NCBI GenBank assembly: GCA_016215325.1
Contig: JACRJV010000026.1
Location: forward strand, 95,955-159,954
Direction of reading: 5' to 3'
Source: Candidatus Uhrbacteria bacterium
GTDB taxonomy: Bacteria; Patescibacteriota; Patescibacteriia; JACRJV01
Length of the DNA stretch: 64,000 bases
Below, piece after piece: positions 4,786 through 53,979 of this stretch. The notes under the pieces were generated by a model. That model searched no databases. It saw only the letters and a program-made list of their open reading frames with translations, and was not told where the DNA came from. Both the position numbers and the translations under genes were made by a program. Numbering within the stretch: the stretch's first letter is position 1; every line of letters starts with the position of its first letter.

Positions 4786-6774
<1,989 letters not shown>

Positions 6775-11398: not shown

Positions 11399-11540
11399 AG
11401 TTTATTCTCTGAATAAGTCCATCTCCTTATTCCACTTCTCAACTCGCAATATAGCATTTTTGTACACTGTCGATTTTGGCTGGTCAATCAATTCTGCTAA
11501 ATCGCAAAGTTCGTTGATTCGCCCGTAGATTACCATTCGC

Positions 11541-11582
11541 AAAATGGGGTCAGCCACCAAATGAAAATGGGGTCAGCCACCA
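11541..11582. repeat. Left terminal repeat of the RAYT element: tandem aaaatggggtcagccacca x2
   Basis: It is an imperfect inverted repeat of tggtgactgaccctatttttcatttgg at 12270-12296. Confidence 0.55.
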
Positions 11583-12247
11583 TTTCTTGGCCTCCCAACC
11601 CCACGCACCGTTTGATCCAGTCCAAAGCGTTGAATCATTGTACTCTGCCATTCTGGTTCTCCAAAGGGCATGCTTTTTAGTACACTCCGTTGAATAGATT
11701 TTTCCTCATCTTCGGTCTGCGGCTTGTTAAGCCACGTGAGATACCCCCTACCCGGTGGAATGGGCCAGATAGACAATAACTTTTTTTGTTCATCGGAACC
11801 ATTCTCTCTTCTCCAAACACTTGACCACTTCCAATCTTCTGCCTTTTCTACAATGTTTGCCCGTTTTGCATTGCGCTCCACGTATCGAACCAATGTAAGA
11901 AAATATATATCGTCCTGCACGAGAAATGCCTTATAGCGACCTTGATACAAGTGGCCTTGTCCAATAGTTTCTTTTTGCGCGTGCCATCGGCGCGTATGCG
12001 TATTGGTGAGCCAGCCCATAAACTGAGAAAGATCCCCATCGTTCTGAGGATGCACCACTAGATGCCAATGATTTGGCATGACACAATATGCCAGTAAACG
12101 CATCTTGTACTTTTCGATCGCCTCCTCGAGGATTTCTTCGAACTGTTGGTAGTCTTTCTTATTATCAAAGATACGCACGCGAGCGTTAGCGCGATTGAGA
12201 ACGTGATAGATATAATCGCCAGCATCGACGCGTGCTAATCTGGGCAT
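11573..12247 (-). CDS. IS200/IS605-family Y1 (HUH) transposase, RAYT / REP-associated tyrosine transposase type
   Basis: HUH motif CVMPNHWHLVV; N-terminal YHVLNRANAR; YxxxY…RY tyrosine region (RYVERNAKRANIV). Confidence 0.7.
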   Translation of the reverse strand: MPRLARVDAGDYIYHVLNRANARVRIFDNKKDYQQFEEILEEAIEKYKMRLLAYCVMPNHWHLVVHPQNDGDLSQFMGWLTNTHTRRWHAQKETIGQGHLYQGRYKAFLVQDDIYFLTLVRYVERNAKRANIVEKAEDWKWSSVWRRENGSDEQKKLLSIWPIPPGRGYLTWLNKPQTEDEEKSIQRSVLKSMPFGEPEWQSTMIQRFGLDQTVRGVGRPRNGG

Positions 12248-12575: not shown

Positions 12576-12653
12576 TGGTAGCCCCATGGGGATTCGAACC
12601 CCAGTTTTCTGGCTGAGAACCAGACGTCCTAGACCGGGCTAGACGATGAGGCC
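12576..12653 (-). tRNA. tRNA-Glu, anticodon CUC, with encoded CCA and a G1-U72 wobble pair
   Basis: On the minus strand: GGCCTCA TC GTC… anticodon arm TCTGG-TTCTCAG-CCAGA; T-arm TGGGG-TTCGAAT-CCCCA; 3' acceptor TGGGGCT-A-CCA. The acceptor pairs throughout, with two G-U wobbles. Confidence 0.6.
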
Positions 12654-12700
12654 CCGAAAGACTGAACTTGAGTATACTCAAACGCTCGCGAATAGACAAT

Positions 12701-12748
12701 GACGGCTCGAACCCAGGGCGTACGCGGACACCGTGAACTCGAGCCGTC
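12701..12748. repeat. Hairpin GACGGCTCGA-N28-TCGAGCCGTC at the edge of high-GC islet 1
   Basis: Perfect 10-bp inverted repeat read from the sequence. Confidence 0.5.
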
Positions 12749-12779
12749 GGAATGAAAGTGAGGTCAGCCGTCGCCTGTG

Positions 12780-13073
12780 CTACGGCTTGCCCACGCCGGC
12801 CACGGCCTGGGCGTGCTGCTCCAGATCCGGGCGGGGATTGCCCGCATCGGTGGCGTTGGCGGATGTGGCGTCGACTTGGGCACCTAACGCGTCTTCGATG
12901 ACGTCGAACTTCCGGACTGTCGAAGCCAACTCCCGGAGCTTTCCTAGGGTGTACACCCTAGGCTCCTTGAACTCGTCGTCGACGAATTCCCAGTGGACGA
13001 TTCTGCCCTGATTGTCCTTCTTGAGGATCAGGGTGAGCCCTTTGGCCACGCTGATCTGCTCGATGAGAGTCAA
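12780..13073 (-). CDS. Hypothetical 97-aa protein encoded in a high-GC islet
   Basis: ORF MTLIEQISVAKGLTLILKKDNQGRIVHWEFVDDEF… sits in a roughly 0.4-kb stretch clearly GC-richer than its flanks. Confidence 0.3.
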   Translation of the reverse strand: MTLIEQISVAKGLTLILKKDNQGRIVHWEFVDDEFKEPRVYTLGKLRELASTVRKFDVIEDALGAQVDATSANATDAGNPRPDLEQHAQAVAGVGKP

Positions 13074-13187
13074 TGATAAATGAGTATGACAAAATCACTG
13101 GTGGCAGTCAACGACACGTACTATTAAATACACCGTCCAAATTCTTTGGACGGTGTATTCGGATGGGAGAGGACACTCTGCGGTAGT

Positions 13188-14318
13188 CTAGATCAACGTC
13201 TCGCGGTTCAAGGGAAACGTCGTGCCATCCATCACATTCTCTGATCCTCTTACCCATTGAATGATCCGCGACATGCCAAAACCGCAGCCCGCGTGCGGGA
13301 CGCTCCCGGCACGAATACGCGAGAGGTACCACTCAAAGTCCTTGATATCGCCGCCCTTCTCCAGCAGCCGTTTGTACATCCGCGAGTTTAAGAGCCTCGC
13401 CTGCATTTGGTCGGCATCGTGCACCCGTGCTGCAGAACCCACCGACTCTCCCGAAAACGGGAGGATGAGATCTGAACTTAACACGCGTCCGGGGTTTTCT
13501 GGGTCTGGGAGCATATTAAAGAACTTTTCAACCTCGATGTGTTTGCCAAAGTCCACCATCGGGTCAGGATAGCGCGTGATAAACACGGGGGCATTGCCAT
13601 GGTGCTGGATGAGGATGCGTTCTAGGGCACTGCTGATGTCATCCCCCCATTCAATGCGGTTGCCGAGTTTTTGGAGCTCTTCGATCGCTTCGTCATACGT
13701 GATCCGATCAAACACTTTGGGGCAGGCTTTGAGGCGTTCGATGTCGGCCGCAATTAACCCTAAAGTCGCAGGGTCCTGGGCATTGGCAATATCTTGGGCA
13801 ATCGCATACACAAATCCATTGATGTAGCCCAGCAGGTCATCGAATGAGCCCGGGAATTCGATTTCCATCATTTGGAATTCTACTAAATGCCGTGCGTCGG
13901 CAATCGGTTCAGCGCGGAAGCTGGGACCAGAGCAATATACTTTCCCGAGTGTCGGCACTAACGCTTCCAGATAGAGTTGCCCTGTTTGCGAAAGGTACGC
14001 GCGCCGACCGTTGAACCACTTAGTATCCTCATCAACCGCTACTTCAAACAACGTATTCACGTTTTCGCACGCGCCACTGGCGCGCACCAGGTGCGGGGTC
14101 ATGACTTCCACAAATCCCTGACTTTCCAAGTACGACCGACCGCTTTTAAATACCGCCGCAACCAGCCGCGTGGCATCTAACCATGCCTTCGGAGCACCGA
14201 TGGATGGATCAACCGTCGTATGCGTGGGGTGGATCGGCAATGTCGGGGAAGCTGGCGTTGAAGTGACGGATTGCGTGAGTGTCGCGTTTGGTAAGATGGC
14301 TCCGGGTTGTGGGGACAT
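13188..14318 (-). CDS. AsnRS-like class II aminoacyl-tRNA-synthetase catalytic core without an anticodon-binding domain (archaeal AsnA / AS-AR-like asparagine synthetase candidate)
   Basis: GFVEVMTPHL…; motif 2 SGPSFRAEPIADARHLVEFQMMEIE (FRAE is AsnRS-type); motif 3 GCGFGMSRII. The N-terminal roughly 45 aa are low-complexity P/T-rich instead of an OB fold. Confidence 0.55.
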   Translation of the reverse strand: MSPQPGAILPNATLTQSVTSTPASPTLPIHPTHTTVDPSIGAPKAWLDATRLVAAVFKSGRSYLESQGFVEVMTPHLVRASGACENVNTLFEVAVDEDTKWFNGRRAYLSQTGQLYLEALVPTLGKVYCSGPSFRAEPIADARHLVEFQMMEIEFPGSFDDLLGYINGFVYAIAQDIANAQDPATLGLIAADIERLKACPKVFDRITYDEAIEELQKLGNRIEWGDDISSALERILIQHHGNAPVFITRYPDPMVDFGKHIEVEKFFNMLPDPENPGRVLSSDLILPFSGESVGSAARVHDADQMQARLLNSRMYKRLLEKGGDIKDFEWYLSRIRAGSVPHAGCGFGMSRIIQWVRGSENVMDGTTFPLNRETLI

Positions 14319-14324
14319 AGAAGT

Positions 14325-14365
14325 TAAGAGATAAAGAGATAAGGAGATGAAGAGATAAAGAATAC
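14325..14365 (-). promoter_or_regulatory. CU-rich tandem octamers (CTTTATCT CTTCATCT CCTTATCT CTTTATCT, mRNA sense) ending 6 nt before the AsnRS-like start codon
   Basis: Read from the sequence; a related copy lies ahead of pyrE at 15217-15245. Confidence 0.4.
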
Positions 14366-14378
14366 GCTCATAAAAAAA

Positions 14379-14409
14379 GACTCTCCGTCAACGGAGAGTC
14401 TGGAAAAAC
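14379..14409 (-). terminator. Rho-independent terminator after pyrE
   Basis: Minus-strand stem GACTCTCCGT-tgac-GGAGAGTC followed by a T8 run. Confidence 0.7.
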
Positions 14410-14554
14410 GAAACAATGAGTTGTTGCGCGGTATCGTACTGGCACTGGTGATTGAAGAACCTCACAGGTTTCTTATCATGGATTTATGTACAAATTACAT
14501 AGTATAATAGCACAACTATTGATTCTGTCAAGGGCCTTGGTTATCCACACTCAA

Positions 14555-15208
14555 CTACAACGCCTTTGCGGCCGGAACGCCAGTTTGGCCTACCAAATAC
14601 CCACGGACCTTGTCGTACATCTCTGCGGTGATCATACCGCTCTCTTTGTAATACGCCAACATATCCGAAAGCGTCATCACGGCATGGAGCGTCACCCCGT
14701 GCTCCTTGAGCTCCGCCGTTCCGCCTTGTTCGCGATCCACCAATACCACAACATCGTTGACCACGAGCCCTGCCTCGCGCAGGGCATTCGCGCCTTCGAC
14801 TTTGGTATCAGCCTTGGTAACCAAATCGTCGACCATCAAGGCGGTCTGCCCTTTTTGGAAGACGCCTTCAATTTTAGCACTAATCCCATGGGTTTTGGTG
14901 TCTTTCTTCGGGGTAATCATCGGGATATCGGTACGATCCATGAGCAACGTTGCAATCGGTGTGGCAGCCGTTGGTAAGTCTGCCAACACATCGCATTTGA
15001 TTCCATCGCGCGCCATCATCGCCTTGAGTTCATCCACGGCCAAGCGGATGGCATACGGGAACGACCGAAGCACGCGAAGATCGACATAGATCGGCGAAAG
15101 TGGAGCATCGGGGTTGGTCTCGTGGAGTTTGAGCTTAAACGCGCCGAACTTTACCGACCCGATATCGAACAGTGCTTTCGCGAACTTTTGACTTGTTTCG
15201 GTGAGCAT
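14555..15208 (-). CDS. pyrE: Orotate phosphoribosyltransferase
   Basis: PRPP-binding motif ALMVDDLVTKADTKVEGANAL; N-terminal FDIGSVKFGAFKLKLHETNPDAPLSPIYVD. Start trimmed to Met-47. Confidence 0.75.
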   Translation of the reverse strand: MLTETSQKFAKALFDIGSVKFGAFKLKLHETNPDAPLSPIYVDLRVLRSFPYAIRLAVDELKAMMARDGIKCDVLADLPTAATPIATLLMDRTDIPMITPKKDTKTHGISAKIEGVFQKGQTALMVDDLVTKADTKVEGANALREAGLVVNDVVVLVDREQGGTAELKEHGVTLHAVMTLSDMLAYYKESGMITAEMYDKVRGYLVGQTGVPAAKAL

Positions 15209-15245
15209 AGACGTGGGAGATAAAGATATGAAGATATTAGGGGTG

Positions 15246-16130
15246 TTAAGATTGATTGAACTGCGTAATATCATCGTGCATTTTTTGGGCCACTGCTCTT
15301 GCGGCCAGGGCAAAATCGGGGCCACTCGATGCGAATAGTACTCCACTGGAATTATTGATGATCATCCCCTGCTTTTTGGCATTGCGGCCATTCTTGACCG
15401 CTTTTTCCAAATCCCCTCCTTGTTTGCCAATACCGGGGATGAGCAATGGCATATCGCCCACGAGTTGACGAATGATGCCAAGTTCTTCGGGATACGTCGC
15501 GCCAGCAACAATAGCACAATTGCCATTTGAGTTCCACACTTCTGATACTTGTTTTGCAACCACCTGATATAATATCGCACTGTCCAAAGCTGGCTTCACT
15601 GGATTTACCGGCTTTACCGGCGAGCTGATCGTAAGATCCTGGAACTCCCCTGCCCCGGGGTTTGAGGTCCGAGCGAGCACAATGATCATTTTATCGGCAC
15701 GATCCAAAAAGGGCTTGAGGGCCTCTTTGCCGAGATACGGATGCACCGTGATCGCATCCGCCCCCAGCCAATCAAACGCGAATTTCACGTACCCATTGTT
15801 GGTATTGCCAATGTCCGCCCTCTTGGCATCAAGGATCAAGGGGACCTCCGGAGCTTTTTCATGAATGAAATCCACGGTGCGCTTGAGCACAGAGATCCCG
15901 CAGGTGCCGAGCGCCTCATAAAATGCGCTGTTCGGCTTATAAGCGCAGACAATATCTTTGGTCGCCTCAATAATCTCGGCATTAAAATCCACAATCGCGT
16001 CTTCCTCAAAATCCGGTTCCTTTTTAAGGTGCGGCGGGAGTTTTTCGTAATCACTATCAAGCCCCACGCACACAAACTTCCCTTCAGCCCAACGGGCATT
16101 GAATAATTCCATGGCGTTACGATCGGACAT
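15246..16130 (-). CDS. pyrF: Orotidine-5'-phosphate decarboxylase (type 2, long form)
   Basis: LDAKRADIGNT, …VCVGLDSDYEKLPPHL…, and VHPYLG. Confidence 0.75.
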   Translation of the reverse strand: MSDRNAMELFNARWAEGKFVCVGLDSDYEKLPPHLKKEPDFEEDAIVDFNAEIIEATKDIVCAYKPNSAFYEALGTCGISVLKRTVDFIHEKAPEVPLILDAKRADIGNTNNGYVKFAFDWLGADAITVHPYLGKEALKPFLDRADKMIIVLARTSNPGAGEFQDLTISSPVKPVNPVKPALDSAILYQVVAKQVSEVWNSNGNCAIVAGATYPEELGIIRQLVGDMPLLIPGIGKQGGDLEKAVKNGRNAKKQGMIINNSSGVLFASSGPDFALAARAVAQKMHDDITQFNQS

Positions 16131-16155
16131 AAACGATGATAAAAAATCTTAAATT

Positions 16156-16521
16156 TTATTGCGGCTCTCTTTCTTGCTCTTTCAAAAGCTCGAGCACCTT
16201 CGCCTTCGCGCGTTCGAGCACGGCTTTTGCCTCAGCGCTGCTCCATCGGGCTTGAGGGATTTCTTCTCGGATGACAATTTCGGTATAGGCATTGGCCATA
16301 ATCTCTTGCAGTTCCGGCCGCGGCGTTATGTTGTTGGTGGACTCTGCGAGTTTCCCGATCGCTCGATCAACCGCTGTTTCGATAACAGTGTCGGGGACTG
16401 TTTGGAGTTCGTGGGTTTTTGCTTCAATAACTCCACCGTGATCAGGCCCAGCAACAGTCATCGCCGGGGTCTCGGCATCCTCGTTCGAATGAAGCCATTC
16501 GGGGATCGGAGCATCTTGCAT
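16156..16521 (-). CDS. Hypothetical acidic protein
   Basis: 121-aa ORF between pyrF and pyrD; no recognisable motif. Confidence 0.35.
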   Translation of the reverse strand: MQDAPIPEWLHSNEDAETPAMTVAGPDHGGVIEAKTHELQTVPDTVIETAVDRAIGKLAESTNNITPRPELQEIMANAYTEIVIREEIPQARWSSAEAKAVLERAKAKVLELLKEQEREPQ

Positions 16522-16538
16522 ACGCTCGTAATATTATT

Positions 16539-16886
16539 GTGTTTAAAGAAAGGACCTTGATCTTTATTGAGCACTCATTATACTGGAAGTACTATCATTC
16601 ACCACACTCTACTATGGGAGCCGAAATGCCTCAATCTCTTCCAGAGCAAGAAATAACGGACAGAATCAAAGAGTTCACCCGCGGGATGGCCCCCCTTGTA
16701 GGGTCCCCGGAATCCATCGCAGAACATTCTACGGAAATTCAGGGATTATTGGATCGTTTCCAAGGGCTCATTATTCAAATGGAGAGTGACGCCGTACTCA
16801 TGAGTAAACCCTATGGACCAACATTGTTAGATTCTGCAAAAACAGCACGGAGAGGGTATGTGGAAACTCTCAATAAAGCCGTGTAG
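16539..16886 (+). CDS. Hypothetical protein (start possibly at Met 16614)
   Basis: ORF divergent from the previous one; no recognisable motif. Confidence 0.35.
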   Translation: MFKERTLIFIEHSLYWKYYHSPHSTMGAEMPQSLPEQEITDRIKEFTRGMAPLVGSPESIAEHSTEIQGLLDRFQGLIIQMESDAVLMSKPYGPTLLDSAKTARRGYVETLNKAV

Positions 16887-16918
16887 GTGGCAAAAGAACG
16901 ATCAAACTAACGTCGGTC

Positions 16919-17872
16919 TTACGCCCCATGCGCCACCCCGATCAATTCTTTAATATCGGTGATATTGTTTTGATCCATATAGTCCAATAGTTGCTGCTTG
17001 AGCTCAACGATCACTTTCATGCCTTTGGTGTACGTCACGGTGCCGATCCCCACGAGCGCAGAACCCGCCATAAACATTTGGACAATATCGGTAACTGTCG
17101 AAACTCCGCCCATCCCAATTATCGGAATGTTTACGGCATTGTAAATTTCGTACACGCATCGCACGGCAATGGGCAAAATCGCCGGGCCGCTGACGCCCCC
17201 CATCTTGGCGCCAATGATGGGCTTCCTCTTTTTAATATCAATAATCATCCCCGGGCCGGCGGTATTAATGGCGGTGATGCCATCGGCGCCGCCGTCTGCG
17301 CAAGCCTTGGCGATCTCCGCAATGTTGGTCACATTGGGCGAAAGTTTTGCAATCACCGGAATAGATCCAGAAATTTTTTTTACCTCTGCCACAATCTGCC
17401 CGGCCGCGCCCTTTTCCATGCCGAGGGGTTTACCAAATTCATCATCCACATTCGGACAAGAAAGATTAAGTTCGATCGCTGCGGGGGCTTGAGGCACAAT
17501 CTTCTCCACGAGATACAAAAATTCTTTTATCTTGGTTGCGAACAAACTCACAATAATCGGCGCTTGGGCGCCATAGGTTTTGATAAACTCTCCAGCCTCT
17601 TTACTCCCCTCTTCGATACCAGCGTTTCGCAGACCCACCGAATTAATGAGTCCCGCATCGTATTTCCAAAGCCGCGGCAAAGGGTTGCCTTCTCGTCGCT
17701 CAAACGTAAATGATTTGAGCGTGATGCCGCCATAGCCCGCTTCCACGGCCCGCTTATGCTCGGCCGTTTCAGTCACAATACCAGAGGGTAAAATAAAGGG
17801 ATTTTCGAACAAAACTTCGAAAACGTTGGTCGCAAGGGTGGCCATAGGAGCTTGATGAAAGCGATGATGCAC
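16919..17872 (-). CDS. pyrD: Dihydroorotate dehydrogenase, class 1 catalytic subunit
   Basis: LKSFTFERREGNPLPRLW, GLINSVGLRNAGIE, NLSCPNV, and C-terminal GMGGV…GAS…G. Confidence 0.8.
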   Translation of the reverse strand: MHHRFHQAPMATLATNVFEVLFENPFILPSGIVTETAEHKRAVEAGYGGITLKSFTFERREGNPLPRLWKYDAGLINSVGLRNAGIEEGSKEAGEFIKTYGAQAPIIVSLFATKIKEFLYLVEKIVPQAPAAIELNLSCPNVDDEFGKPLGMEKGAAGQIVAEVKKISGSIPVIAKLSPNVTNIAEIAKACADGGADGITAINTAGPGMIIDIKKRKPIIGAKMGGVSGPAILPIAVRCVYEIYNAVNIPIIGMGGVSTVTDIVQMFMAGSALVGIGTVTYTKGMKVIVELKQQLLDYMDQNNITDIKELIGVAHGA

Positions 17873-17904
17873 GATATACTGATAATATCCTTGTTTTCAA
17901 TTCT

Positions 17905-18093
17905 ATGCAAGAATTTCGTTGCCGCGTTGACCATAAATTGCTGCTCAAGGCATGTTTGGTCGATGCCGATGTCGAGATTAAATGCCGCAGTTGCGGCACC
18001 ATGAATCTCTTCAAAAAACATGAGCATGTGGATCCAACGATGCTCTGTTACAAAGAAGGATGCCCCAATCGCGTTCAGCAACCGGCGACGTAA
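17905..18093 (+). CDS. Small CxxC zinc-ribbon protein
   Basis: CRVDH…CRSCGTMNLF…CYKEGCPN; it overlaps the upstream part of the sufS ORF frame, so low confidence. Confidence 0.25.
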   Translation: MQEFRCRVDHKLLLKACLVDADVEIKCRSCGTMNLFKKHEHVDPTMLCYKEGCPNRVQQPAT

Positions 18094-18193
18094 ATGTCCT
18101 GCCTACATAAACAGAGCCCCGGCGATACCGATGACGCCCTCGCACAACGAAGCATTCAATGCTCATGCGATACATGAGTTTTCTTTTTGGTTT

Positions 18194-19411
18194 ATGGATC
18201 TACAAAAACTCCGCAATGACTTCCCACTCCTGGCTTCGCCTTCGAACAAGCCAGTGATGTATTTTGACAATGCGTGCATGAGTTTGAAGCCCCGAGCAGT
18301 GATCAACGCAATGAACCAATATTATGAACAGTTCCCCGCCTGCGGCGGCCCTGGCCGCAGCGGCCATGCGCTGGGGGCCCGCGTCCGGGAGGCAGTCGAT
18401 CAGTCGCGCCAAACAATCGCACGCGCCATCGGCGCCCAACACCCCAATGAGATTATCTTCACCCGCAACACCACAGAGAGCATCAACCTCGTTGCCCGCA
18501 GTTTCCGTTGGAACGCCGGCGATGTCGTGCTCACCACCGACAAAGAGCATAACTCTAATTTGATCCCGTGGCTCAATACCCGGAGGTTGTCCAACATCCG
18601 GCATGCCGTAATCCCGTCCCTGCCGGACAACACATTCGATTTAAGCGCGTTCGAGCAGCTGCTCAAACTGGGCTCCGTCCGGCTCGTGAGTGTTGGCCTC
18701 GTCTCCAATCTCGATGGCGTGCGCGTCCCTATTGCTGAAATCATCAAACGCGCTCACGCCGCCGGCGCAATGGTCATGGTTGATGCGGCACAGGCGATGC
18801 TCCATTCCCCCCTAAACGTCCAAGCGCTTGGTGTCGACTTCCTCGCATTCTCCGGCCATAAAATGCTCGGGCCCACCGGTACGGGCGTTTTGTATGGTAA
18901 ACGGGAGCTGCTCGAAAATCTCGAACCATTCCTACTGGGCGGCGATACCGTGAGCGCAACAACCTATACCGATTTCCAACTCTTGGACGTGCCAGAGCGT
19001 TTTGAAGCAGGACTCCAAGACTACGCCGGCATCATCGGCCTAGGGGCAGCAATGGAGTACCTGCAATCCATTGGTTGGCCATTCATTGAGTCGCAGGATC
19101 AGCAGATGAATCGGATCATCACAGAAGGGATTGCCCACCTAAAAGGAGTACACATGATCGGACCAGCTGATCCGGCCCTTCGTGGCGGCATTGTGGCATT
19201 TACCATCAAGGGCATGGACCATCACCAAGTGGCGGTGATGCTCGAGCAGATGAACGCCATTCTTGTGCGGTCTGGCCAACACTGTGTACACTCTTGGTTT
19301 GGGAGCCGCGGCATCCCCGGCTCGGTACGCGCTTCGGTGGCCTTCTACAACACTGTCGACGAAGCCGAGCAGTTTGTGCAAGCCATGGAAAAAATAACGA
19401 CGTTGCTCTAA
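18194..19411 (+). CDS. sufS: Cysteine desulfurase (SufS / class V aminotransferase)
   Basis: MDLQKLRNDFPLL…VMYFDNACMS…; PLP-lysine region SGHKMLGPTGTGVLYGK; the C-terminal Cys motif is typical of SufS. Confidence 0.8.
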   Translation: MDLQKLRNDFPLLASPSNKPVMYFDNACMSLKPRAVINAMNQYYEQFPACGGPGRSGHALGARVREAVDQSRQTIARAIGAQHPNEIIFTRNTTESINLVARSFRWNAGDVVLTTDKEHNSNLIPWLNTRRLSNIRHAVIPSLPDNTFDLSAFEQLLKLGSVRLVSVGLVSNLDGVRVPIAEIIKRAHAAGAMVMVDAAQAMLHSPLNVQALGVDFLAFSGHKMLGPTGTGVLYGKRELLENLEPFLLGGDTVSATTYTDFQLLDVPERFEAGLQDYAGIIGLGAAMEYLQSIGWPFIESQDQQMNRIITEGIAHLKGVHMIGPADPALRGGIVAFTIKGMDHHQVAVMLEQMNAILVRSGQHCVHSWFGSRGIPGSVRASVAFYNTVDEAEQFVQAMEKITTLL

Positions 19412-23980: not shown

Positions 23981-24931
23981 TTATACGTGTTCGGCGGCCC
24001 GCAATCGTGCACTGCGCGAGGTGGGGTACTGGCGGAGTTCTTCGGTCGAAGGAGTAATAGATCTTGCCGTTAACAATTTGACGGTCGCCGAGGTACCGCA
24101 AATGCAAATCGGCGCCTCGGGCGGGCAAACGCAGGACTTCGCTAACATCCGCAGCGTCTGTTTTACAATCCGATCTTCGAGCGAATGATACGAAATAATC
24201 ACAATCCGGCCGTTTGGGTTCAGGACATCCACCCACACCTTGATGGCACGCTGGATAATGGCCAGCTCATCATTGACCGCAATCCGAAGGGCTTGGAGCA
24301 CCAGTGTCATCGGATTGTGGCGGCGATGCGCTCGCACAAGAGGGACAACAAGGAACTCTAACTCGCCAACAGTGGTCAGCGGCGATACGCCGCGATACTG
24401 GACGATAGTGCGTGCAAGCTGTTTTGCAGATGGCACTTCTCCATATTCGCGCAACCAGCGTTCGATCTCTTGCGCACTCTTGTCGCGTAAGAGGTCTGCA
24501 GCGGTCGGGATGGCGGCGCTCGGATCAAATCGCAGATCCAACGGGGCGGAGGCGTAGCGGAAACTCATCCCGCGTCTGGGATCTTCGAGGTGCTGGATCG
24601 CCACTCCCAGATCGAGCAGCACTCCATCGACGTGGGTTTTACCGGCAGCCCCGAGAATCTCTGCCACGTGGTCATAAGAGTTATGGACAAGCATGACACA
24701 ACTCTTCCAGGCAGCAAGGGTTTCCGCGGCAGCCAGCAGCTGCTGCGGATCTCGATCGACGCCGATGAGCATCCCATCATGACCAGCGCAAATGACTTCT
24801 GCAATGCGTTTGGCATGCCCTCCGGATCCGACAGTACCATCGACCACTGTCTGACCGGGAGCGCACGCTAAGTATTGAATAGCTTCATTCGCGAGGACGG
24901 GATGATGGCTCAAAAAAATTCCAATTTCCAA
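23981..24931 (-). CDS. rsmH: 16S rRNA (cytosine1402-N4)-methyltransferase RsmH / MraW
   Basis: VDGTVGSGGHA…, DLGVA-type SAM-binding motifs; gene adjacent to mraZ. Confidence 0.85.
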   Translation of the reverse strand: MEIGIFLSHHPVLANEAIQYLACAPGQTVVDGTVGSGGHAKRIAEVICAGHDGMLIGVDRDPQQLLAAAETLAAWKSCVMLVHNSYDHVAEILGAAGKTHVDGVLLDLGVAIQHLEDPRRGMSFRYASAPLDLRFDPSAAIPTAADLLRDKSAQEIERWLREYGEVPSAKQLARTIVQYRGVSPLTTVGELEFLVVPLVRAHRRHNPMTLVLQALRIAVNDELAIIQRAIKVWVDVLNPNGRIVIISYHSLEDRIVKQTLRMLAKSCVCPPEAPICICGTSATVKLLTARSITPSTEELRQYPTSRSARLRAAEHV

Positions 24932-25004
24932 TTTCCAATTTCCAATGAGCGATCGGCATCGATATTGAAAATTGAAAATTGAAAATTCATTGTAAATTGA
25001 AAAT
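24918..25004. repeat. mraZ-rsmH intergenic palindrome: (TTCCAAT)x4 on the left arm, (GAAAATT)n on the right
   Basis: attccaatttccaatttccaatttccaat … gaaaattgaaaattgaaaattcattgtaaattgaaaattt. Confidence 0.7.
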
Positions 25005-25469
25005 TTATACTCCCAGTTCTCTCATCTGCTCGGCAATATCCACACTATTGGTTTCTGCCTGGAGCTTGTACTGCTCCCACGCCTCCTCATCCCATAATTC
25101 GATCCGAGAATACAAACCGGCGACAACCACCTGCTTATTCAACTTTGCGTATTGGCGGAGGTATTCGGGCAATACGATCCGACCATTACCATCGAGCTCC
25201 GCGTCCATAGCGCCGCCGAACATGAGCCGAGCGAATGCCCGCGGATTGGATTGGGATATCGGCAGCGCGGAGAGCTTTTCTGCCAACTGCTTCCAGGAGT
25301 CTGCGGGGAACAAAAAAAGACACTGGTCAATTCCGCGAGTAACAACAGCGCCTTTCTTGAATTGTGCTTGATATTTTTTGGGGATGGCAAGCCGCCCCTT
25401 ATCGTCCAATGTGTGGTGGTATTCTCCGATGAAGATTGCCATACGTGAATGAACAGGACTTATCCCCAC
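25005..25469 (-). CDS. mraZ: Transcriptional regulator MraZ
   Basis: MFLGEYHHTLDDKGRLAIP motif duplicated (…GAMDAELDGNGRIVLP…). Confidence 0.9.
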   Translation of the reverse strand: MGISPVHSRMAIFIGEYHHTLDDKGRLAIPKKYQAQFKKGAVVTRGIDQCLFLFPADSWKQLAEKLSALPISQSNPRAFARLMFGGAMDAELDGNGRIVLPEYLRQYAKLNKQVVVAGLYSRIELWDEEAWEQYKLQAETNSVDIAEQMRELGV

Positions 25470-28915: not shown

Positions 28916-28992
28916 GAGTGAATCCCGCTTAGCCAGTGAATCCCGCCGGCCAGCTACTGGCTCACCGGATTTACTGGATTTACTGGATTTAC
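28916..28992. repeat. rplJ-rplL intergenic palindrome: (AGTGAATCCCGC)x2 on the left arm, (GGATTTACT)x3 on the right
   Basis: gagtgaatcccgcttagccagtgaatcccgcc … ggatttactggatttactggatttact. Confidence 0.65.
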
Positions 28993-29514
28993 TTATTTCT
29001 TAGAATTTCCAATCGCGTCAATAACACTGACGAGTTGTCGAATATTGGCATTGAGCGCTCCCACCACGCCGGAAATCGGCGCATTGAGTAACCCAACCAA
29101 TTGGCCGCGCAGTTGTTGTTTTGTCGGCAGCGTACTCACCGCTGTGACCTCTTCCGCAGTAATCCATCGCCCCTCGAAGATTCCCCCGAGCGGGTTGATC
29201 ACCTCATTTTTCTTGCGGAAGGTCATCAAGACCTTTGCGGGTGCGACTTCGTCGCCATATCCCAGCAACAGACTGATGCTCCCGGCTAAGCTGCGGGCCG
29301 ACACGGTCCAACCCGTGTCCTTCACCGCCACGTCAAGCAAAGTTTTCTTGACCGAGACATATTCAGCCTGTTCTGCTTCCAGTTGTTTGCGCAGCTCCTG
29401 GCTCTGAGCAACGCTCATCGCGTTGTAGCTTGCAACCACAACAGACTTGGCACGGCCCAAATGATCCTTGAGCCCGGCAACGATTTCTTCTTTTCGACTT
29501 CGTGTTTTTGCCAT
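28993..29514 (-). CDS. rplJ: 50S ribosomal protein L10
   Basis: [19 protein letters not shown]…[21 protein letters not shown]. Confidence 0.85.
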
Positions 29515-32201: not shown

Positions 32202-32937
32202 TATTATGTTTCCGTATAATAATATTTTTTGCTGCTTGATACCTCTCTATCGTCTTCTTCCACCATGGCAAATATTTAAAGGGGGCGTGATACGCGAATG
32301 AGGGAACCCACTGGCTCATGGTCCCGCCGGTGGCTATGGTGTAGAGTACTTCCGGGATGAATACCCCCCTGCCGCCGCGCTCGGCAATTGTTAAAAAGAG
32401 GTCCCAGTCCTGGAATTTCTTGAGGCTCTCGTCAAACCGCGGGAAGGCACCGCGGCGCAGTAAAGAGCTAGTATGAATGTAGTTCAATTGGCGCAATGTT
32501 GCAAGATCAAAGGGGAATGAACTAAACTTCTTATGACTAAAAAGGAATTGGCTGTAGCTGAATGCCGCGTCCGGGTGTTGCTCGAGCGCTTCCCACATTT
32601 TTTCAAGACAATCCGGCTCCAGACGAATATCGGCATCACAAAAAAAGAGAAGGTCACCATTGCAAGCATCAAACCCGCGATTGCGCGCAGCGGCTGCTCC
32701 CCTATTTTGTTGATCAATCCATTGTATGGAGAATCCCTTACGTTGTAGTAAATCTGCAATCTGCAATCTGCAATCTGCAATCGTATCCGTCGATCCATCA
32801 TTGACAATAATAATCTCAGTTTCTATTCTAATGTTTTTAAGAACATTAGAATAGATAGATTGTTCAAGAATACTCTCGACACAGGCTTCGAGTTCTTTGG
32901 CGTGATTATATACCGGGATGATGATCGAAACTAGCAT
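32197..32937 (-). CDS. Family 2 glycosyltransferase
   Basis: MLVSIIIPVYN…; IIVNDGSTD; …FCDAD. Confidence 0.8.
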   Translation of the reverse strand: MLVSIIIPVYNHAKELEACVESILEQSIYSNVLKNIRIETEIIIVNDGSTDTIADCRLQIADLLQRKGFSIQWIDQQNRGAAAARNRGFDACNGDLLFFCDADIRLEPDCLEKMWEALEQHPDAAFSYSQFLFSHKKFSSFPFDLATLRQLNYIHTSSLLRRGAFPRFDESLKKFQDWDLFLTIAERGGRGVFIPEVLYTIATGGTMSQWVPSFAYHAPFKYLPWWKKTIERYQAAKNIIIRKHNI

Positions 32938-38667: not shown

Positions 38668-39792
38668 TTATAATGCACCTCCGGTGCGTTCCAGGATACG
38701 AGACAACTTCTGTACCCGTTGAGTCCACTGAAACTCTCTTAACACCCGCTCTCTTCCTGTAGCTCCCATAGTATTCATCCTGTCCGAGTCATTCAACAAA
38801 TCAATAATGTCCTGGACGATTTTTTTGATATCTGTCGGGCTCGTGAGCACCCCAGTGCCGCCATCTTCCACCGCCTCCGGCACGCCTCCACTGCGTGCTG
38901 CCACCACCGGCAAACCATACAGTGCCGCTTCCAGGCACACCATGCCAAACCCTTCCACATCGCCGTTGGGCAGTTCTCGCGGCAAAAAGACAAAGCAGTC
39001 GGCAGCGCGATAGAATTGAGCAAGCCGCTCTACAGAGGCCGAAGGTTCAAATCGAATGACATCGTGGACATCGAGTTGATCGGCCAATACTTCAATGCGC
39101 CGGCGATCCGGTCCGTCGCCGACAAACGTCCAGTGGAATTTCTTTCCCTGTTTTTTGAGTTCGGCGGCAACAGACACGGCGGCATCGTATCCTTTGCGTT
39201 CAACAAACCGGGCGATGGTAAGGAGGCGCCAGGTCGTCGCGTCATCCTGAGGGAAGGCCGAAGGATCTCGAGATTCTACGCTCGACCCAGAATGACGAAC
39301 AGCGGCAATGACGGTTGCCGACGGACACGGAGTGAGCACTGTTATTTTTTCTTTATCAATTCCGTACTCCAAAACAATCTTTTTTGTATATTCCGAATTC
39401 GTGATGACCCAGGTTGCACGCTGCATCACCTTTTTTGCAATCCATCGCTTGCGGCCGTTCAGTGCGAGATCAAGACCATGCGCAAAAATTCCGTAACGAA
39501 ATCCAGGTATTAAATCATTAAACCAATAAACTAATAAATCAATAAACCAAACCGCTTCTCCAACAGGCAATACCTCGCCCGCAAATATGATGCTTGCCTT
39601 GTGTCTTTTCATCTCCCTGAGAATCCGCCACAGCATCGGGAGCCACCGCGGAAAAAATCCCCAGTATAATTTTTCTTCGCCCACGAACGGAATAATCTTT
39701 CCTTCACTCGCATCCACAAGTCCGCGATAATATTCCCCCACTCCGCCCACCATGGGCGGGTATTCCAACGCGGCTAACAGTATTCTGTTCAT
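38668..39792 (-). CDS. Family 4 (GT-B) glycosyltransferase
   Basis: …FVFLPRELPNGDVEGFGMVCLEAALYGLPVVAARSGGVPEAVEDGGTGVL (EX7E-type motif). Confidence 0.8.
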   Translation of the reverse strand: MNRILLAALEYPPMVGGVGEYYRGLVDASEGKIIPFVGEEKLYWGFFPRWLPMLWRILREMKRHKASIIFAGEVLPVGEAVWFIDLLVYWFNDLIPGFRYGIFAHGLDLALNGRKRWIAKKVMQRATWVITNSEYTKKIVLEYGIDKEKITVLTPCPSATVIAAVRHSGSSVESRDPSAFPQDDATTWRLLTIARFVERKGYDAAVSVAAELKKQGKKFHWTFVGDGPDRRRIEVLADQLDVHDVIRFEPSASVERLAQFYRAADCFVFLPRELPNGDVEGFGMVCLEAALYGLPVVAARSGGVPEAVEDGGTGVLTSPTDIKKIVQDIIDLLNDSDRMNTMGATGRERVLREFQWTQRVQKLSRILERTGGAL

Positions 39793-42417: not shown

Positions 42418-42452
42418 TCATTCTCACATTCTCAAGTTTGTAAGGGTGTTTG
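42415..42452. repeat. Copy 1 of the conserved 31-nt element cattctcacattctcaagtttgtaagg(g/a)tgt
   Basis: Direct repeat occurring at 42415, 43393 and 43759. Confidence 0.75.
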
Positions 42453-43392: not shown

Positions 43393-43430
43393 ACTCATTC
43401 TCACATTCTCAAGTTTGTAAGGATGTTGTT
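43393..43430. repeat. Copy 2 of the conserved 31-nt element
   Basis: actcattctcacattctcaagtttgtaaggatgttgtt. Confidence 0.75.
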
Positions 43431-43747: not shown

Positions 43748-43776
43748 AGTATATCAAAACATTCTCACATTCTCAA
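43748..43776 (-). promoter_or_regulatory. Putative sigma-70-type promoter of the ArsR gene: -35 TTGAGA (inside the 31-nt element), 17-nt spacer, -10 TATACT
   Basis: Minus strand reads TTGAGAATGTGAGAATGTTTTGATATACT; spacing counted directly. Confidence 0.35.
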
Positions 43777-46697: not shown

Positions 46698-46789
46698 AAT
46701 TTTCAATTTTCAGTTTACAATTTTCAATTCAGTCGCATGTTTGAAAATTGTGTCTTGAAAATTCATTGGAAATTGATAATTGAAAATTT
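46698..46789. repeat. rpsK-rpsD intergenic palindrome of (AATTTTC)n and (GAAAATT)n arms
   Basis: aattttcaattttcagtttacaattttcaatt … ttgaaaattgtgtcttgaaaattcattggaaattgataattgaaaattt. Confidence 0.7.
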
Positions 46790-47708: not shown

Positions 47709-47789
47709 AATTTCAGATTTTAGATTGTAGATTGATGATTCTAGAGCGTATGCGATTATTCTGCAATCTGAAATCTAAAATCTGCAATG
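47709..47789. repeat. rpsM-rpmJ intergenic palindrome of (CAGATTT/TAGATTG)n arms
   Basis: aatttcagattttagattgtagattgatgattctag … attctgcaatctgaaatctaaaatctgcaatg. Confidence 0.7.
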
Positions 47790-53904: not shown

Positions 53905-53975
53905 TGAATTCCCAATTCCTAATCTCTAATACCCAATGAAATGGCGGGTATTGGAAATTGGAAATTGGAAATTGG
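53905..53975. repeat. Palindrome of (CCCAATT/CTAAT)n and (ATTGGAA)x3 arms between the ATPase gene and its membrane partner
   Basis: gaattcccaattcctaatctctaatacccaatg … cgggtattggaaattggaaattggaaattt. Confidence 0.7.
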
Positions 53976-53979
53976 AAAT

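What the first reader, a model, noticed from the sequence alone, without database searches (positions are those of the whole stretch)
13188..14365. AsnRS catalytic-core paralogue without an anticodon-binding domain, preceded by a CU-rich tandem-octamer leader
The protein has class II motifs of AsnRS type (FRAEP…RHLVEFQMMEIE; GFGMSRII). A P/T-rich low-complexity N-terminus of about 45 aa replaces the OB-fold anticodon-binding domain. This is the architecture of archaeal AsnA-type asparagine synthetases (tRNA-independent aspartate-ammonia ligases). Immediately upstream of its start codon the mRNA would carry CUUUAUCU CUUCAUCU CCUUAUCU CUUUAUCU. A related AUCUUCAUAUCUUUAUCUC block precedes pyrE (15217-15245). 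This is a pyrimidine-rich translational element rather than a Shine-Dalgarno site, possibly S1-dependent initiation or a regulatory protein-binding site.
Basis: partly seen in the sequence, partly recalled or inferred. Interest (0 to 1): 0.55.

Follow-up and report, generated by a model that had tools for sequence, protein, structure and literature searches.

The report
Stand-alone AsnRS core tied to pyrimidine genes
This candidate-phyla-radiation (CPR) bacterium carries an asparaginyl-tRNA synthetase catalytic core with no tRNA-anticodon domain; the family is widespread, uncharacterised, repeatedly linked to pyrimidine-synthesis genes and sits behind a terminator-containing leader, while the eye-catching CU-rich octamer repeat is a recent local copy of the neighbouring pyrE leader, not a conserved translation signal.

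Summary
Window 13188-14318 (minus strand) encodes a 376-aa class II catalytic core of AsnRS type with no OB-fold anticodon domain. An 8-nt array of 4.5 copies lies in a 46-nt G-less tract directly before its ATG.

The protein is NCBI HZA86_04935 (Candidatus Uhrbacteria). I call its family asnL. It is monophyletic, lacks the anticodon domain, and occurs in CPR bacteria, Zixibacteria, DPANN archaea, Bathyarchaeia and Nitrososphaeria. It is much closer to true AsnRS than to the characterised archaeal asparagine synthetase AS-AR, and it fails every curated AsnA model. All AsnRS adenylate-forming residues are kept; several AsnRS-invariant residues are lost. The most likely function is a tRNA-independent aspartate-ammonia-type ligase. 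This is inferred, not shown.

- asnL is the gene most often co-located with pyrB/C/D/E/F (17 of 74 loci), including a PyrR-controlled operon.
- In 25 of 30 CPR loci, asnL follows a terminator hairpin. Here the order is sigma-70 promoter, 135-nt conserved leader, terminator, gene.

The octamer array is missing from the two closest orthologous leaders. It matches a relative's pyrE leader at 34 of 37 positions, and it is one of 14 intergenic short tandem arrays in the window. A dedicated translational element is not supported.

The parts
13188..14318 (-). asnL coding sequence: 376-aa stand-alone AsnRS-type class II catalytic core (NCBI HZA86_04935).
14184..14318 (-). Codons 1-45: P/T-rich N-terminal extension, predicted disordered and specific to the Uhrbacteria subclade. 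It is not an anticodon-binding domain.
   Evidence: pLDDT below 50 for residues 1-41. Alignment A2 shows most homologues start near residue 47.
14326..14361 (-). Octamer tandem array (unit CTTTATCT on the mRNA strand, 4.5 copies) inside a 46-nt G-less tract, 14319-14364.
   Evidence: Insertion relative to L001 and L002. Matches the L001 pyrE leader at 34 of 37 positions.
14324..14371 (-). Possible 15-codon upstream ORF (MSVFFISSSPYLFIS). It starts right after the terminator U-run, spans the array, and stops 5 nt before the asnL ATG. It is not conserved in relatives.
   Evidence: Read from the sequence. Absent in L001 and L002.
14372..14401 (-). Intrinsic terminator: 10-bp stem AGACUCUCCG/CGGAGAGUCU, loop UUGA, U-run.
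   Evidence: The stem differs in sequence but is kept in L001 and L002 through changes on both sides. It is the only strong terminator in 12600-18200.
14368..14503 (-). Conserved 5' leader with blocks AUGUAAUUUG, CCUGUGAG, ACCAGUGCCAAUACGA and UCAUUGUUUCGUUUUU, ending in the terminator.
   Evidence: Alignments A1 and A3. Model R1 scores 145-154 bits in the three Uhrbacteria loci only. No Rfam family reaches threshold.
14504..14531 (-). Sigma-70-type promoter TTGACA-16-TATTAT with TG (11 of 12 matches).
   Evidence: The same promoter sits at the same place in L001 and L002.
14555..15208 (-). pyrE (orotate phosphoribosyltransferase, UMP-synthase-like type).
   Evidence: PDB 3qw4 and 2wns at 1e-35. 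NCBIfam OPRT models.
15209..15245 (-). pyrF-pyrE spacer carrying the related CU-rich block ATCTTCATATCTTTATCTC.
   Evidence: The L001 pyrE leader has 4 copies of the unit.
15246..16130 (-). pyrF (OMP decarboxylase, subfamily 2).
   Evidence: TIGR02127, 226 bits, above its cutoff.
16919..17845 (-). pyrD (class 1 dihydroorotate dehydrogenase).
   Evidence: PF01180 at 6e-69. NF005574, 311 bits, above its cutoff.

Best explanation
The gene encodes a stand-alone adenylate-forming enzyme descended from archaeal-type AsnRS. I call the family asnL. It keeps the full AsnRS machinery for binding ATP/Mg2+, the alpha-amino group and the Asn/Asp side chain. It has no anticodon-binding domain and has lost several AsnRS-invariant residues.

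It therefore most likely activates aspartate or asparagine with ATP and passes the acyl group to a small nucleophile rather than to tRNA. By analogy with the two known precedents, bacterial AsnA and archaeal AS-AR, the most probable reaction is Asp + NH3 + ATP -> Asn + AMP + PPi. This step is inferred.

Expression comes from the gene's own sigma-70 promoter through a 135-nt conserved leader that ends in an intrinsic terminator. That is a transcription attenuator whose effector is unknown. The anatomy is shown; the regulation is inferred. The gene is the distal member of the pyrD-pyrF-pyrE cluster.

The CU-rich octamer array between terminator and ATG is a lineage-specific copy or expansion of the pyrE 5' leader. 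It is one of many short tandem arrays in this genome's intergenic DNA, not a conserved initiation signal.
For: Protein:
- Core-only matches to AsnRS models and structures.
- The truncated family forms one clade apart from full-length AsnRS in a neighbour-joining tree of 101 sequences.
- Every AsnRS catalytic column is kept in 34 CPR-clade (including two Zixibacteria-labelled) and 37 archaeal members: E85, Q111, Q114, E118, R135, E137, R143, H144, F148, E152, E154, D283, E291, R298, H342, R351.
- AsnRS-invariant R136, S214, T216 (changed to D141), Y332 (changed to N268), R391 and R426 are lost or replaced.
- Hundreds of homologues at about 60% identity indicate strong purifying selection.
- Metabolic reconstructions of DPANN genomes list an asnA (PMC11606122).

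Leader:
- Promoter and terminator are present and both are conserved in L001 and L002.
- The terminator stem shows compensatory changes.
- L002 has a separate pyrE terminator upstream of the promoter, so the leader terminator belongs to asnL.
- A terminator-like hairpin lies next to the asnL start in 25 of 30 CPR loci, against 22 of 245 other genes.

Array:
- Absent from the L001 and L002 asnL leaders.
- 34 of 37 identity to the L001 pyrE leader.
- 14 of 20 tandem arrays lie in the 13.8% of the window that is intergenic (p = 1.5e-8).
Against: - No biochemical evidence exists for any member.
- The family fails all curated AsnA models and is closer to AsnRS than to AS-AR.
- The amino-acid pocket is AsnRS-like: Leu117 stands where AspRS has the Lys that binds the beta-carboxylate (own knowledge of AspRS/AsnRS). 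This would favour Asn over Asp as ligand.
- An asparagine synthetase has no known reason to sit in pyr operons.
- I could not test whether this genome has a full-length asnS, asnB or gatCAB.
- Regulated read-through of the terminator has not been demonstrated.
- asnL and pyrE have the two most CU-rich leaders of 58 genes, so a shared function of the block is not excluded.
Confidence: 0.5

Rival explanations
1. asnL is a dedicated part of pyrimidine metabolism rather than a housekeeping asparagine synthetase. It could act on an aspartate-derived intermediate: carbamoyl-aspartate and dihydroorotate are N-substituted Asp and a cyclised Asn analogue. Or it could make Asn as the amide-nitrogen carrier for amidotransferases (GatCAB, CarA, PyrG) in organisms that lack glutamine synthetase.
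For: - Unbiased clustering of all neighbours in 84 loci puts pyrE/pyrF (10 loci) and pyrD (9 loci) at the top.
- With pyrB and pyrC added, 17 of 74 truncated-family loci carry a pyr gene within 6 kb, against 0 of 10 full-length AsnRS loci.
- At least ten different arrangements occur. Examples: overlapping asnL-pyrE-pyrD-pyrF in a Nitrosopumilales genome (L036), asnL-pyrD in DPANN (L044, L066), gatB-pyrD-asnL (L039), gatB-pyrB-asnL (L018).
- In a Zixibacteria genome the order is PyrR site (RF00515, 45.9 bits, E 0.002), terminator, pyrR, pyrB, pyrC, asnL.
- gatB is adjacent in 7 CPR loci.
- The family-specific invariant residues N86, D141 and N268 lie in motifs that form the AsnRS active site.
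Against: - All six canonical UMP steps already have enzymes.
- L011 has an active-type PyrC with its metal ligands intact, so asnL does not replace it there.
- Linkage may reflect en-bloc transfer, or shared use of aspartate.
- 77% of loci show no pyr gene nearby.
- No specific chemistry is supported by data.
Confidence: 0.2
2. The CU-rich octamer block is a functional cis element shared by pyrE and asnL. It would be either an S1-type, Shine-Dalgarno-independent translation enhancer or an operator for a common regulator.
For: - The two most pyrimidine-rich -40..-1 regions of 58 genes belong to asnL and pyrE, and the third to pyrD.
- The asnL copy is nearly identical to the pyrE leader of L001 (34 of 37), and both abut the start codon with ...TCTATG.
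- Neither gene has a Shine-Dalgarno site.
Against: - The block is absent before asnL in L001 and L002, and before pyrE in L002, whose leader carries a different array, CAAATAC(GA).
- It occurs at only two sites in 64 kb.
- 49 of 58 genes also lack a Shine-Dalgarno site without such a block.
- The window has 14 intergenic arrays with unrelated units, in either orientation relative to the adjacent genes.
Confidence: 0.2
3. The leader is a divergent PyrR-binding attenuator: a uridine-nucleotide-loaded PyrR protein stabilises the terminator.
For: - The only Rfam match in the leader is RF00515 PyrR, covering the full model: 14371-14479, 23.1 bits, E 0.33.
- The hairpin AGAAACCUGUGAGGUUCU resembles the PyrR loop consensus ARUCCAGAGAGGYU, which I recalled from memory.
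- asnL lies in a bona fide PyrR operon in L011.
Against: - The score is far below the gathering threshold of 54.
- The L001 and L002 leaders give no PyrR match at E <= 10.
- No pyrR gene is found in the window or in any CPR locus fetched.
- L011 is a Zixibacteria genome, not CPR.
- The pyrD upstream regions here carry no such leader.
Confidence: 0.15
4. The protein is still an asparaginyl-tRNA synthetase. It would work without an anticodon domain, or with one supplied in trans, as the AsnRS of a reduced genome.
For: - All residues needed to form Asn-AMP are kept, and the pocket is AsnRS-like.
- JGI annotates relatives as asparaginyl-tRNA synthetase.
- Translation genes (gatB, miaA, miaB, thrS) are frequent neighbours in CPR.
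Against: - Several AsnRS-invariant residues, including three arginines, are lost or replaced, and the motif-2 loop is changed.
- No conserved small OB-fold neighbour appears among the co-located families.
- Full-length AsnRS exists in archaeal phyla that also carry the truncated form (Bathyarchaeota).
- gatB is present in these CPR lineages, so the transamidation route is available.
- The anticodon is the main identity element of tRNA(Asn) (own knowledge).
Confidence: 0.08
5. Non-catalytic partner protein in the manner of HisZ, for example a regulatory subunit of PyrE or another pyr enzyme.
For: - Adjacency to, or overlap with, pyrE (window; L036).
- The precedent of HisZ, a HisRS-like regulator of the phosphoribosyltransferase HisG (own knowledge).
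Against: Every catalytic residue of the adenylation site is invariant across the 71 aligned members. That is not expected for a purely regulatory scaffold.
Confidence: 0.03

Closest known systems
Asparaginyl-tRNA synthetase, archaeal type (e.g. Pyrococcus horikoshii AsnRS, PDB 1x54)
   Same: - Class IIb catalytic fold: Foldseek top hit, 34% identity, TM-score 0.71 normalised to the query.
- phmmer E-value 3e-45.
- All adenylate-forming and side-chain-binding residues are conserved.
- The closest full-length relatives are archaeal AsnRS at about 42% identity.
   Different: - No OB-fold anticodon-binding domain.
- Scores below the curated asnS cutoffs (208 against 414 bits).
- Loss or replacement of AsnRS-invariant R136, S214, T216, Y332, R391 and R426, plus a family-specific insertion (S312, M314, L318).
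- Forms a separate clade.
Archaeal asparagine synthetase A (AS-AR, Pyrococcus abyssi; PDB 3p8t, 1nnh)
   Same: A stand-alone AspRS/AsnRS-like core without an anticodon domain. It is the precedent for a tRNA-independent Asp + NH3 + ATP reaction.
   Different: - Only marginal sequence similarity (7.8e-5 and 1.4e-4, C-terminal 90 residues only).
- Fails NF005052-NF005055, and ten other family members fail them too.
- Not among the top 50 structural neighbours.
- As I recall the literature, AS-AR derives from AspRS; this family derives from AsnRS.
Other anticodon-domain-less class II paralogues: E. coli AsnA, EpmA/PoxA (LysRS-like EF-P lysyl ligase), HisZ
   Same: The same evolutionary theme: a synthetase core reused for a tRNA-independent task. 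There are weak model matches to EpmA.
   Different: Different parent synthetase and different partners. No efp, hisG or carrier-protein gene is linked to asnL.
Pyrimidine attenuators (PyrR-binding leaders RF00515; E. coli pyrBI UTP-sensitive, translation-coupled attenuator)
   Same: - The order promoter, leader, intrinsic terminator directly before a gene of the pyr cluster.
- A U-rich tract before the terminator.
- In seven other CPR lineages a 26-29-codon leader ORF ends in the terminator loop, as a pyrBI-type mechanism would need.
   Different: - The PyrR model scores only 23 bits here and gives no match in L001 or L002.
- The window's own leader has no conserved leader ORF.
- No effector is known.
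Short tandemly repeated repetitive (STRR) heptamer sequences of cyanobacteria
   Same: Arrays of 7-9-nt units, a few copies each, concentrated in non-coding DNA, with several unit families per genome. The STRR comparison is from my own knowledge.
   Different: Different phylum and different units. Here the arrays often sit directly at gene 5' ends, form inverted pairs, and occasionally lie inside genes.

Membership tests
Asparagine--tRNA ligase (AsnRS) | Class II motifs 1-3 and AsnRS adenylate-site residues | tested here: met
   PF00152 at 6.6e-47. All catalytic columns are conserved.
Asparagine--tRNA ligase (AsnRS) | N-terminal OB-fold anticodon-binding domain | tested here: not met
   - The alignment starts at profile position 134 of 451.
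- Residues 1-41 are disordered.
- Upstream DNA is leader and pyrE.
- About 120 homologues are 325-390 aa long.
Asparagine--tRNA ligase (AsnRS) | Score at or above the curated equivalog cutoff | tested here: not met
   NF003037: 208 against 414 bits. TIGR00457: 187 against 343 bits.
Asparagine--tRNA ligase (AsnRS) | Charges tRNA(Asn) | not testable with these tools
   Needs an enzyme assay. Loss or replacement of AsnRS-invariant R136, R391 and R426 argues against it.
Archaeal asparagine synthetase A (AS-AR / PRK06462) | Stand-alone class IIb core without an anticodon domain | tested here: met
Archaeal asparagine synthetase A (AS-AR / PRK06462) | Score at or above a curated AsnA equivalog cutoff (NF005052-NF005055) | tested here: not met
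   - This protein scores 109, 54, 35 and 30 bits against cutoffs of 368, 309, 389 and 322.
- Ten further members score 43-162 bits on the best model.
Archaeal asparagine synthetase A (AS-AR / PRK06462) | Solved AS-AR is the nearest relative by sequence or fold | tested here: not met
   3p8t at 7.8e-5 against AsnRS at 3e-45. AS-AR is not in the Foldseek top 50.
Archaeal asparagine synthetase A (AS-AR / PRK06462) | Makes Asn from Asp + NH3 + ATP without tRNA | not testable with these tools
   Needs biochemistry or complementation.
PyrR binding site (RF00515) | Covariance-model score at or above gathering (54 bits), conserved in orthologous leaders | tested here: not met
   23.1 bits in the window. 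No match in L001 or L002 at E <= 10.
PyrR binding site (RF00515) | pyrR gene in the same genome | tested here: inconclusive
   No PyrR homologue in the 64-kb window or in the CPR loci. The rest of the genome was not available.
T-box leader (RF00230) | Covariance-model match upstream of the gene | tested here: not met
   No T-box match in the window leader, in L001/L002 at E <= 10, in six further loci searched at E <= 1, or in eleven loci at gathering threshold. A T-box-like match occurs only before thrS in L003.
Transcription attenuator (promoter, leader, intrinsic terminator, gene) | G+C hairpin plus U-run between a promoter and the start codon, kept across relatives through compensatory change | tested here: met
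   Found in 25 of 30 CPR loci against 9% of other genes.
Transcription attenuator (promoter, leader, intrinsic terminator, gene) | Conditional read-through controlled by an effector | not testable with these tools
   Needs in vitro transcription or Term-seq.
Shine-Dalgarno-independent pyrimidine-rich translational enhancer | Element conserved before the orthologous start codons, or general before start codons of the genome | tested here: not met
   Absent in the L001 and L002 asnL leaders. Present at only 2 of 58 genes.

The most novel reading that the evidence does not exclude
asnL is an unrecognised component of the pyrimidine regulon, shared by CPR bacteria, Zixibacteria, DPANN archaea and ammonia-oxidising archaea. 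It would be an AsnRS-derived adenylating enzyme that either catalyses a new ATP-dependent step on an aspartate-derived pyrimidine intermediate or supplies asparagine as the amide-nitrogen currency for pyrimidine and Asn-tRNA synthesis. In CPR it would be controlled by a new class of pyrimidine-responsive attenuator that is translation-coupled or protein-dependent.
Probability: 0.2. Interest if true: 0.8.

Novelty: new variant of a known kind. Interest (0 to 1): 0.6.

Why it matters
- Synthetase cores that have lost their anticodon domain are classic examples of enzyme recruitment (AsnA, AS-AR, HisZ, EpmA). This family would be a further recruitment, apparently separate from AS-AR and this time from AsnRS itself. 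It is conserved at about 60% identity across much of the candidate phyla radiation, yet public records name it only 'hypothetical' or 'ligase-related'.
- CPR and DPANN organisms keep very few biosynthetic enzymes. One that is retained this widely, wired into pyrimidine operons and placed behind its own attenuator probably marks a metabolic need we do not yet understand.
- The leader is a candidate new cis-regulatory RNA for a group in which almost no regulation has been described.
- The repeat analysis is a caution: striking tandem motifs next to start codons in this genome are common, fast-evolving features, not dedicated signals.

Tried and rejected
- **Frameshift or upstream start restoring an OB domain.** Rejected: the upstream DNA is leader, terminator and pyrE, and all close homologues are short.
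- **Split AsnRS with a neighbouring anticodon-domain gene.** The downstream 97-aa ORF has no family match, and no small conserved neighbour family exists.
- **asnL replacing dihydroorotase.** Rejected for L011, where an active-type PyrC precedes it.
- **Known RNA families in the leader.** None at gathering threshold in the window or in 11 CPR loci. None at E <= 1 in six further loci. The weak PyrR match is not reproduced in L001 or L002.
- **Metagenome scan for more copies of the Uhrbacteria leader.** It found only L001's own contig plus two chance matches in GC-rich DNA.
- **Covariance model R1.** It found no further convincing leaders, so covariation rests on three sequences.
- **Leader-peptide attenuation for the window itself.** No conserved ORF in the window or L002, although it is enriched in other CPR leaders.
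- **tRNA(Asn) gene linkage.** None; neighbouring tRNAs are Glu, Arg, Lys, Leu and others.
- **PyrR in CPR.** The only PyrR found belongs to a Zixibacteria genome.
- **Presence of asnS or gatCAB in the source genome.** Could not be tested. The exact-protein contig look-up failed, and literature searches gave nothing specific.
- **Thermotogota and Synergistota hits of the genome scan.** These turned out to be full-length AsnRS, not family members.
Full report
**1. What is there**

The finding lies on the minus strand. ORF 13188..14318 (ATG, 376 aa) carries the quoted motifs.
- Pfam finds only the class II D/K/N core, residues 53-371 (6.6e-47).
- The best curated model, asnS NF003037, aligns from profile position 134 to 445 of 451. 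That is the catalytic domain without the N-terminal OB fold.
- The best solved relative is Pyrococcus horikoshii AsnRS (1x54, 3e-45). The solved archaeal asparagine synthetase AS-AR (3p8t, 1nnh) matches only at about 1e-4, over the last 90 residues.
- An AlphaFold model (pLDDT 79.9) has residues 1-41 disordered.
- Its nearest PDB folds are AsnRS catalytic domains, then AspRS. AS-AR is not in the top 50.
- An identical protein is on record as 'hypothetical protein HZA86_04935 [Candidatus Uhrbacteria bacterium]'.

Directly upstream, Tandem Repeats Finder reports an 8-nt array of 4.5 copies at 14326-14361. It lies inside a 46-nt stretch with no G on the mRNA strand. The related block in front of pyrE is also there (15209-15245). 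Both parts of the observation are confirmed.

**2. The protein family**

Hundreds of proteins of 325-390 aa from Patescibacteria share about 60% identity with this one. They are named 'amino acid--tRNA ligase-related protein', 'hypothetical' or, by JGI, 'asparaginyl-tRNA synthetase'.

A search of 1.8 billion cluster representatives shows dozens of further core-only clusters down to about 34% identity. These are interleaved with full-length AsnRS from about 1e-50. The nearest full-length enzymes are archaeal: Baldr-, Odin-, Bathy- and Thermoplasmatota.

A scan of species-representative genomes returned 73 loci with the truncated form. They come from CPR lineages, Zixibacteriota, Aenigm-, Woese-, Micr-, Nano- and Pacearchaeota, Bathyarchaeia, Nitrososphaeria and Thermoproteales. 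It also returned 10 full-length AsnRS loci from Thermotogota, Synergistota and others.

In a neighbour-joining tree of the catalytic cores, the truncated proteins form one clade separate from all full-length AsnRS. A bacterial (mostly CPR) subclade is sister to an archaeal one. None of eleven tested members reaches any curated 'asparagine synthetase A' cutoff, and all score higher on asnS models.

This is therefore a distinct AsnRS-derived lineage, which I call asnL. It is not the characterised AS-AR family.

**3. What the sequence says about chemistry**

Column-by-column comparison of 34 CPR-clade (including two Zixibacteria-labelled), 37 archaeal and 28 full-length sequences gives three groups of positions.
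- Kept in all: the alpha-amino-binding Glu (E85), QxxQLYxE, motif 2 (R135, E137, R143, H144, F148), the two Glu of ExE (E152, E154), the Mg2+/ATP ligands D283 and E291, R298 of GxxxR, H342 and the motif 3 Arg (R351). From my own knowledge of the Thermus and E. coli enzymes, R298 corresponds to the side-chain-binding Arg of AsnRS and AspRS.
- Changed specifically and invariantly in asnL: T216 to D141 in the motif-2 loop, Y332 to N268 (KAFYM becomes KFFNM), G to N86, F to C345, and a short insertion (S312, M314, L318).
- AsnRS-invariant positions lost or replaced in asnL: R136, S214, R391 and R426.

My reading is inference. The adenylation site is intact and under strong selection, so the protein is an enzyme and not a scaffold. 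The acceptor is probably no longer tRNA. The two precedents for such cores, AsnA and AS-AR, are aspartate-ammonia ligases, and published DPANN reconstructions list an asnA (PMC11606122).

One caveat: position 117 is Leu as in AsnRS, not the Lys that AspRS uses for the beta-carboxylate. The pocket does not obviously prefer Asp.

**4. Genomic context: the pyrimidine link**

In the window the gene follows pyrD (16919-17845), a 121-aa ORF, pyrF (15246-16130) and pyrE (14555-15208). All three are verified. The same order holds in the two closest genomes, L001 and L002.

I clustered all ORFs of 84 loci without prior labels. The families most often co-located with asnL were pyrE/pyrF (10 loci) and pyrD (9 loci). 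They ranked ahead of a TrmB-like regulator, miaA, an ftsE-like gene, gatB (7 CPR loci), thrS and miaB.

With pyrB and pyrC added, 17 of 74 truncated-family loci have a pyr gene within 6 kb. None of the 10 full-length AsnRS loci does.

The arrangements differ between lineages:
- asnL-pyrE-pyrD-pyrF with 4-8-nt overlaps in a Nitrosopumilales genome (L036).
- asnL-pyrD in DPANN (L044, L066).
- gatB-pyrD-asnL (L039) and gatB-pyrB-asnL (L018).
- pyrB-pyrC-asnL in L011.

L011 is a genuine Zixibacteria genome, with TonB, dockerin and TetR neighbours and a PyrR whose relatives are Zixibacteria. Its operon starts with a PyrR-site match (RF00515, 45.9 bits, E 0.002) plus a terminator, followed by pyrR (NF003549, 244 bits). 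Its PyrC has the HxH and DHAPH metal ligands, so asnL is not a dihydroorotase substitute there.

I found no paper describing this linkage. It is the main unexplained result and the basis of the novel reading.

**5. The real cis-regulatory anatomy**

Upstream of the octamers, on the mRNA strand, lie three elements.
- A near-consensus promoter at 14531-14504: TTGACA-16-TATTAT with TG, 11 of 12 matches.
- A 135-nt leader.
- The only strong intrinsic terminator of the region: stem 14401-14378 plus a U-run.

Promoter, leader blocks and terminator are conserved in L001 and L002. The terminator stems differ in sequence but stay paired; 5 pairs change on both sides. L002 has an additional pyrE terminator before the promoter, so the leader terminator belongs to asnL.

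Across CPR, a terminator-like hairpin lies next to the asnL start in 25 of 30 loci, against 22 of 245 other genes.

No Rfam family reaches threshold. The only match is a weak PyrR-site hit in the window (23 bits against a gathering score of 54), and it is not reproduced in L001 or L002.

In seven other CPR lineages an ATG ORF of 26-29 codons starts about 90-98 nt before the U-run and stops in the terminator loop. ORFs of at least 20 codons ending at the terminator occur in 19 of 29 leaders, against 6.6 ± 2.2 in dinucleotide shuffles. Some of these may be ends of upstream genes. A U-rich tract precedes the terminator. This recalls the UTP-sensitive, translation-coupled pyrBI attenuator (my own knowledge), but the window's own leader has no conserved ORF.

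I conclude that asnL is under transcription attenuation by an unknown effector.

**6. The octamer array**

Alignment of the three orthologous leaders shows the array as a roughly 35-nt insertion present only in the window. It sits between the terminator and the last few bases before the ATG.

It aligns at 34 of 37 positions with the pyrE leader of L001, which carries four copies of the unit. The window's own pyrE leader keeps a shorter version. L002 has neither; its pyrE leader carries a different array, CAAATAC(GA).

The unit is found nowhere else in the window, and no tandem pair of it occurs in about 0.9 Mb of related loci outside the L001 pyrE leader.

The window as a whole has 20 arrays of period 6-9. 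Fourteen lie in the 13.8% that is intergenic (p = 1.5e-8; shuffles give 0.1). They have many unrelated units, lie in either orientation relative to the adjacent genes, and often form inverted pairs.

Only 9 of 58 genes have a Shine-Dalgarno-like motif, and many have a -10-like box just before the ATG. Lack of a Shine-Dalgarno site is therefore the rule here, not a special property of asnL.

The array is best explained as a recent copy or expansion of the pyrE leader, produced by whatever process generates these arrays. Two points keep a functional reading alive at about 0.2:
- asnL, pyrE and pyrD have the three most pyrimidine-rich 5' regions of 58 genes.
- In the window the array lies within a 15-codon upstream ORF that stops 5 nt before the asnL ATG. 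Changes in 8-nt copy number would shift that frame.

**7. Limits**

I could not examine the rest of the source genome. The presence of asnS, aspS, gatCAB, asnB, glnA, carAB and pyrR is unknown. The leader covariation rests on three close sequences. The tree is distance-based. Residue roles are assigned by homology and partly from memory. The function of the protein, and regulation by the leader, are inferences.

**8. Verdict**

The protein is a real AsnRS paralogue without an anticodon domain, but it belongs to an uncharacterised lineage distinct from AS-AR. The octamer leader is not a conserved translational element. The more interesting features are the family's repeated embedding in pyrimidine operons and its terminator-containing leader.

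Noticed in passing
window, e.g. 1143-1170, 1834-1864, 6745-6773, 24919-25005, 28967-28993, 46698-46788, 47710-47788, 53950-53980: Intergenic DNA is packed with short tandem arrays (period 7-9, 3-6 copies). The units ATTGGAA, ATTGAAA, ATTGGGA and GTAAATCCA recur, often as inverted pairs of arrays around a spacer and often directly at gene 5' ends (pilin-like gene, dnaK, mraZ/rsmH region, ribosomal protein genes). Fourteen of 20 arrays lie in the 13.8% of the sequence that is non-coding. They resemble cyanobacterial STRR repeats.
   Followed up: partly
window 32751-32782, 39511-39550, 51234-51259: Heptamer and octamer arrays inside coding regions: a GT2 glycosyltransferase (GATTGCA x4.6), a GT4 glycosyltransferase (x5) and the variable loop of MnmA (AATTGGG x3.7). 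Units that are not a multiple of 3 nt suggest slipped-strand phase variation in the surface-sugar genes.
   Followed up: no
window 42419-42434, 43396-43411, 43759-43775: The same block, ccttacaaacT TGAGAATG TGAGAATG, sits upstream of three consecutive minus-strand genes. It looks like a shared promoter or operator of a small paralogous cluster.
   Followed up: no
window 11532-11584 and 11573-12247: An IS200/RAYT-like Y1 transposase gene, identified from its sequence only, is flanked by a 23-nt direct repeat (x2.3) that looks like a REP element.
   Followed up: no
whole window: Only 9 of 58 genes have a GGAG/GAGG/AGGA motif within 20 nt of the start. Many have a TATAAT-like box a few bases before the ATG, which suggests widespread leaderless or very short-leader mRNAs.
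   Followed up: partly
L011 2982-7017: A Zixibacteria genome carries the CPR-type asnL (59% identity) as the last gene of a PyrR-site / pyrR / pyrB / pyrC operon. This implies horizontal transfer of asnL between CPR and Zixibacteria and recruitment into a classical pyr regulon.
   Followed up: yes
L003 12543-12755: A T-box-like leader (42.9 bits, E 3e-6, below gathering) lies upstream of thrS in a CPR genome.
   Followed up: no
L003, L005, L010, L013, L014, L016, L024: about 100 nt upstream of asnL: Small ORFs of 26-29 codons start just after a -10 box and end in the loop of the terminator that precedes asnL. Several share a Trp-Lys pair, encoded by the conserved AAUGGAAAUU. They are candidate leader peptides.
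   Followed up: partly
window 15592-15621: pyrF contains an in-frame 9-nt repeat encoding PVKPVNPVKP. The L001 pyrF has a different 9-nt array at the matching place.
   Followed up: no
window 12576-12653; L001 6232-6303; L002 6194-6268: tRNA-Glu(CUC) is conserved just downstream of asnL in the three Uhrbacteria loci. In the window a 97-aa ORF with no family match is inserted between them.
   Followed up: no
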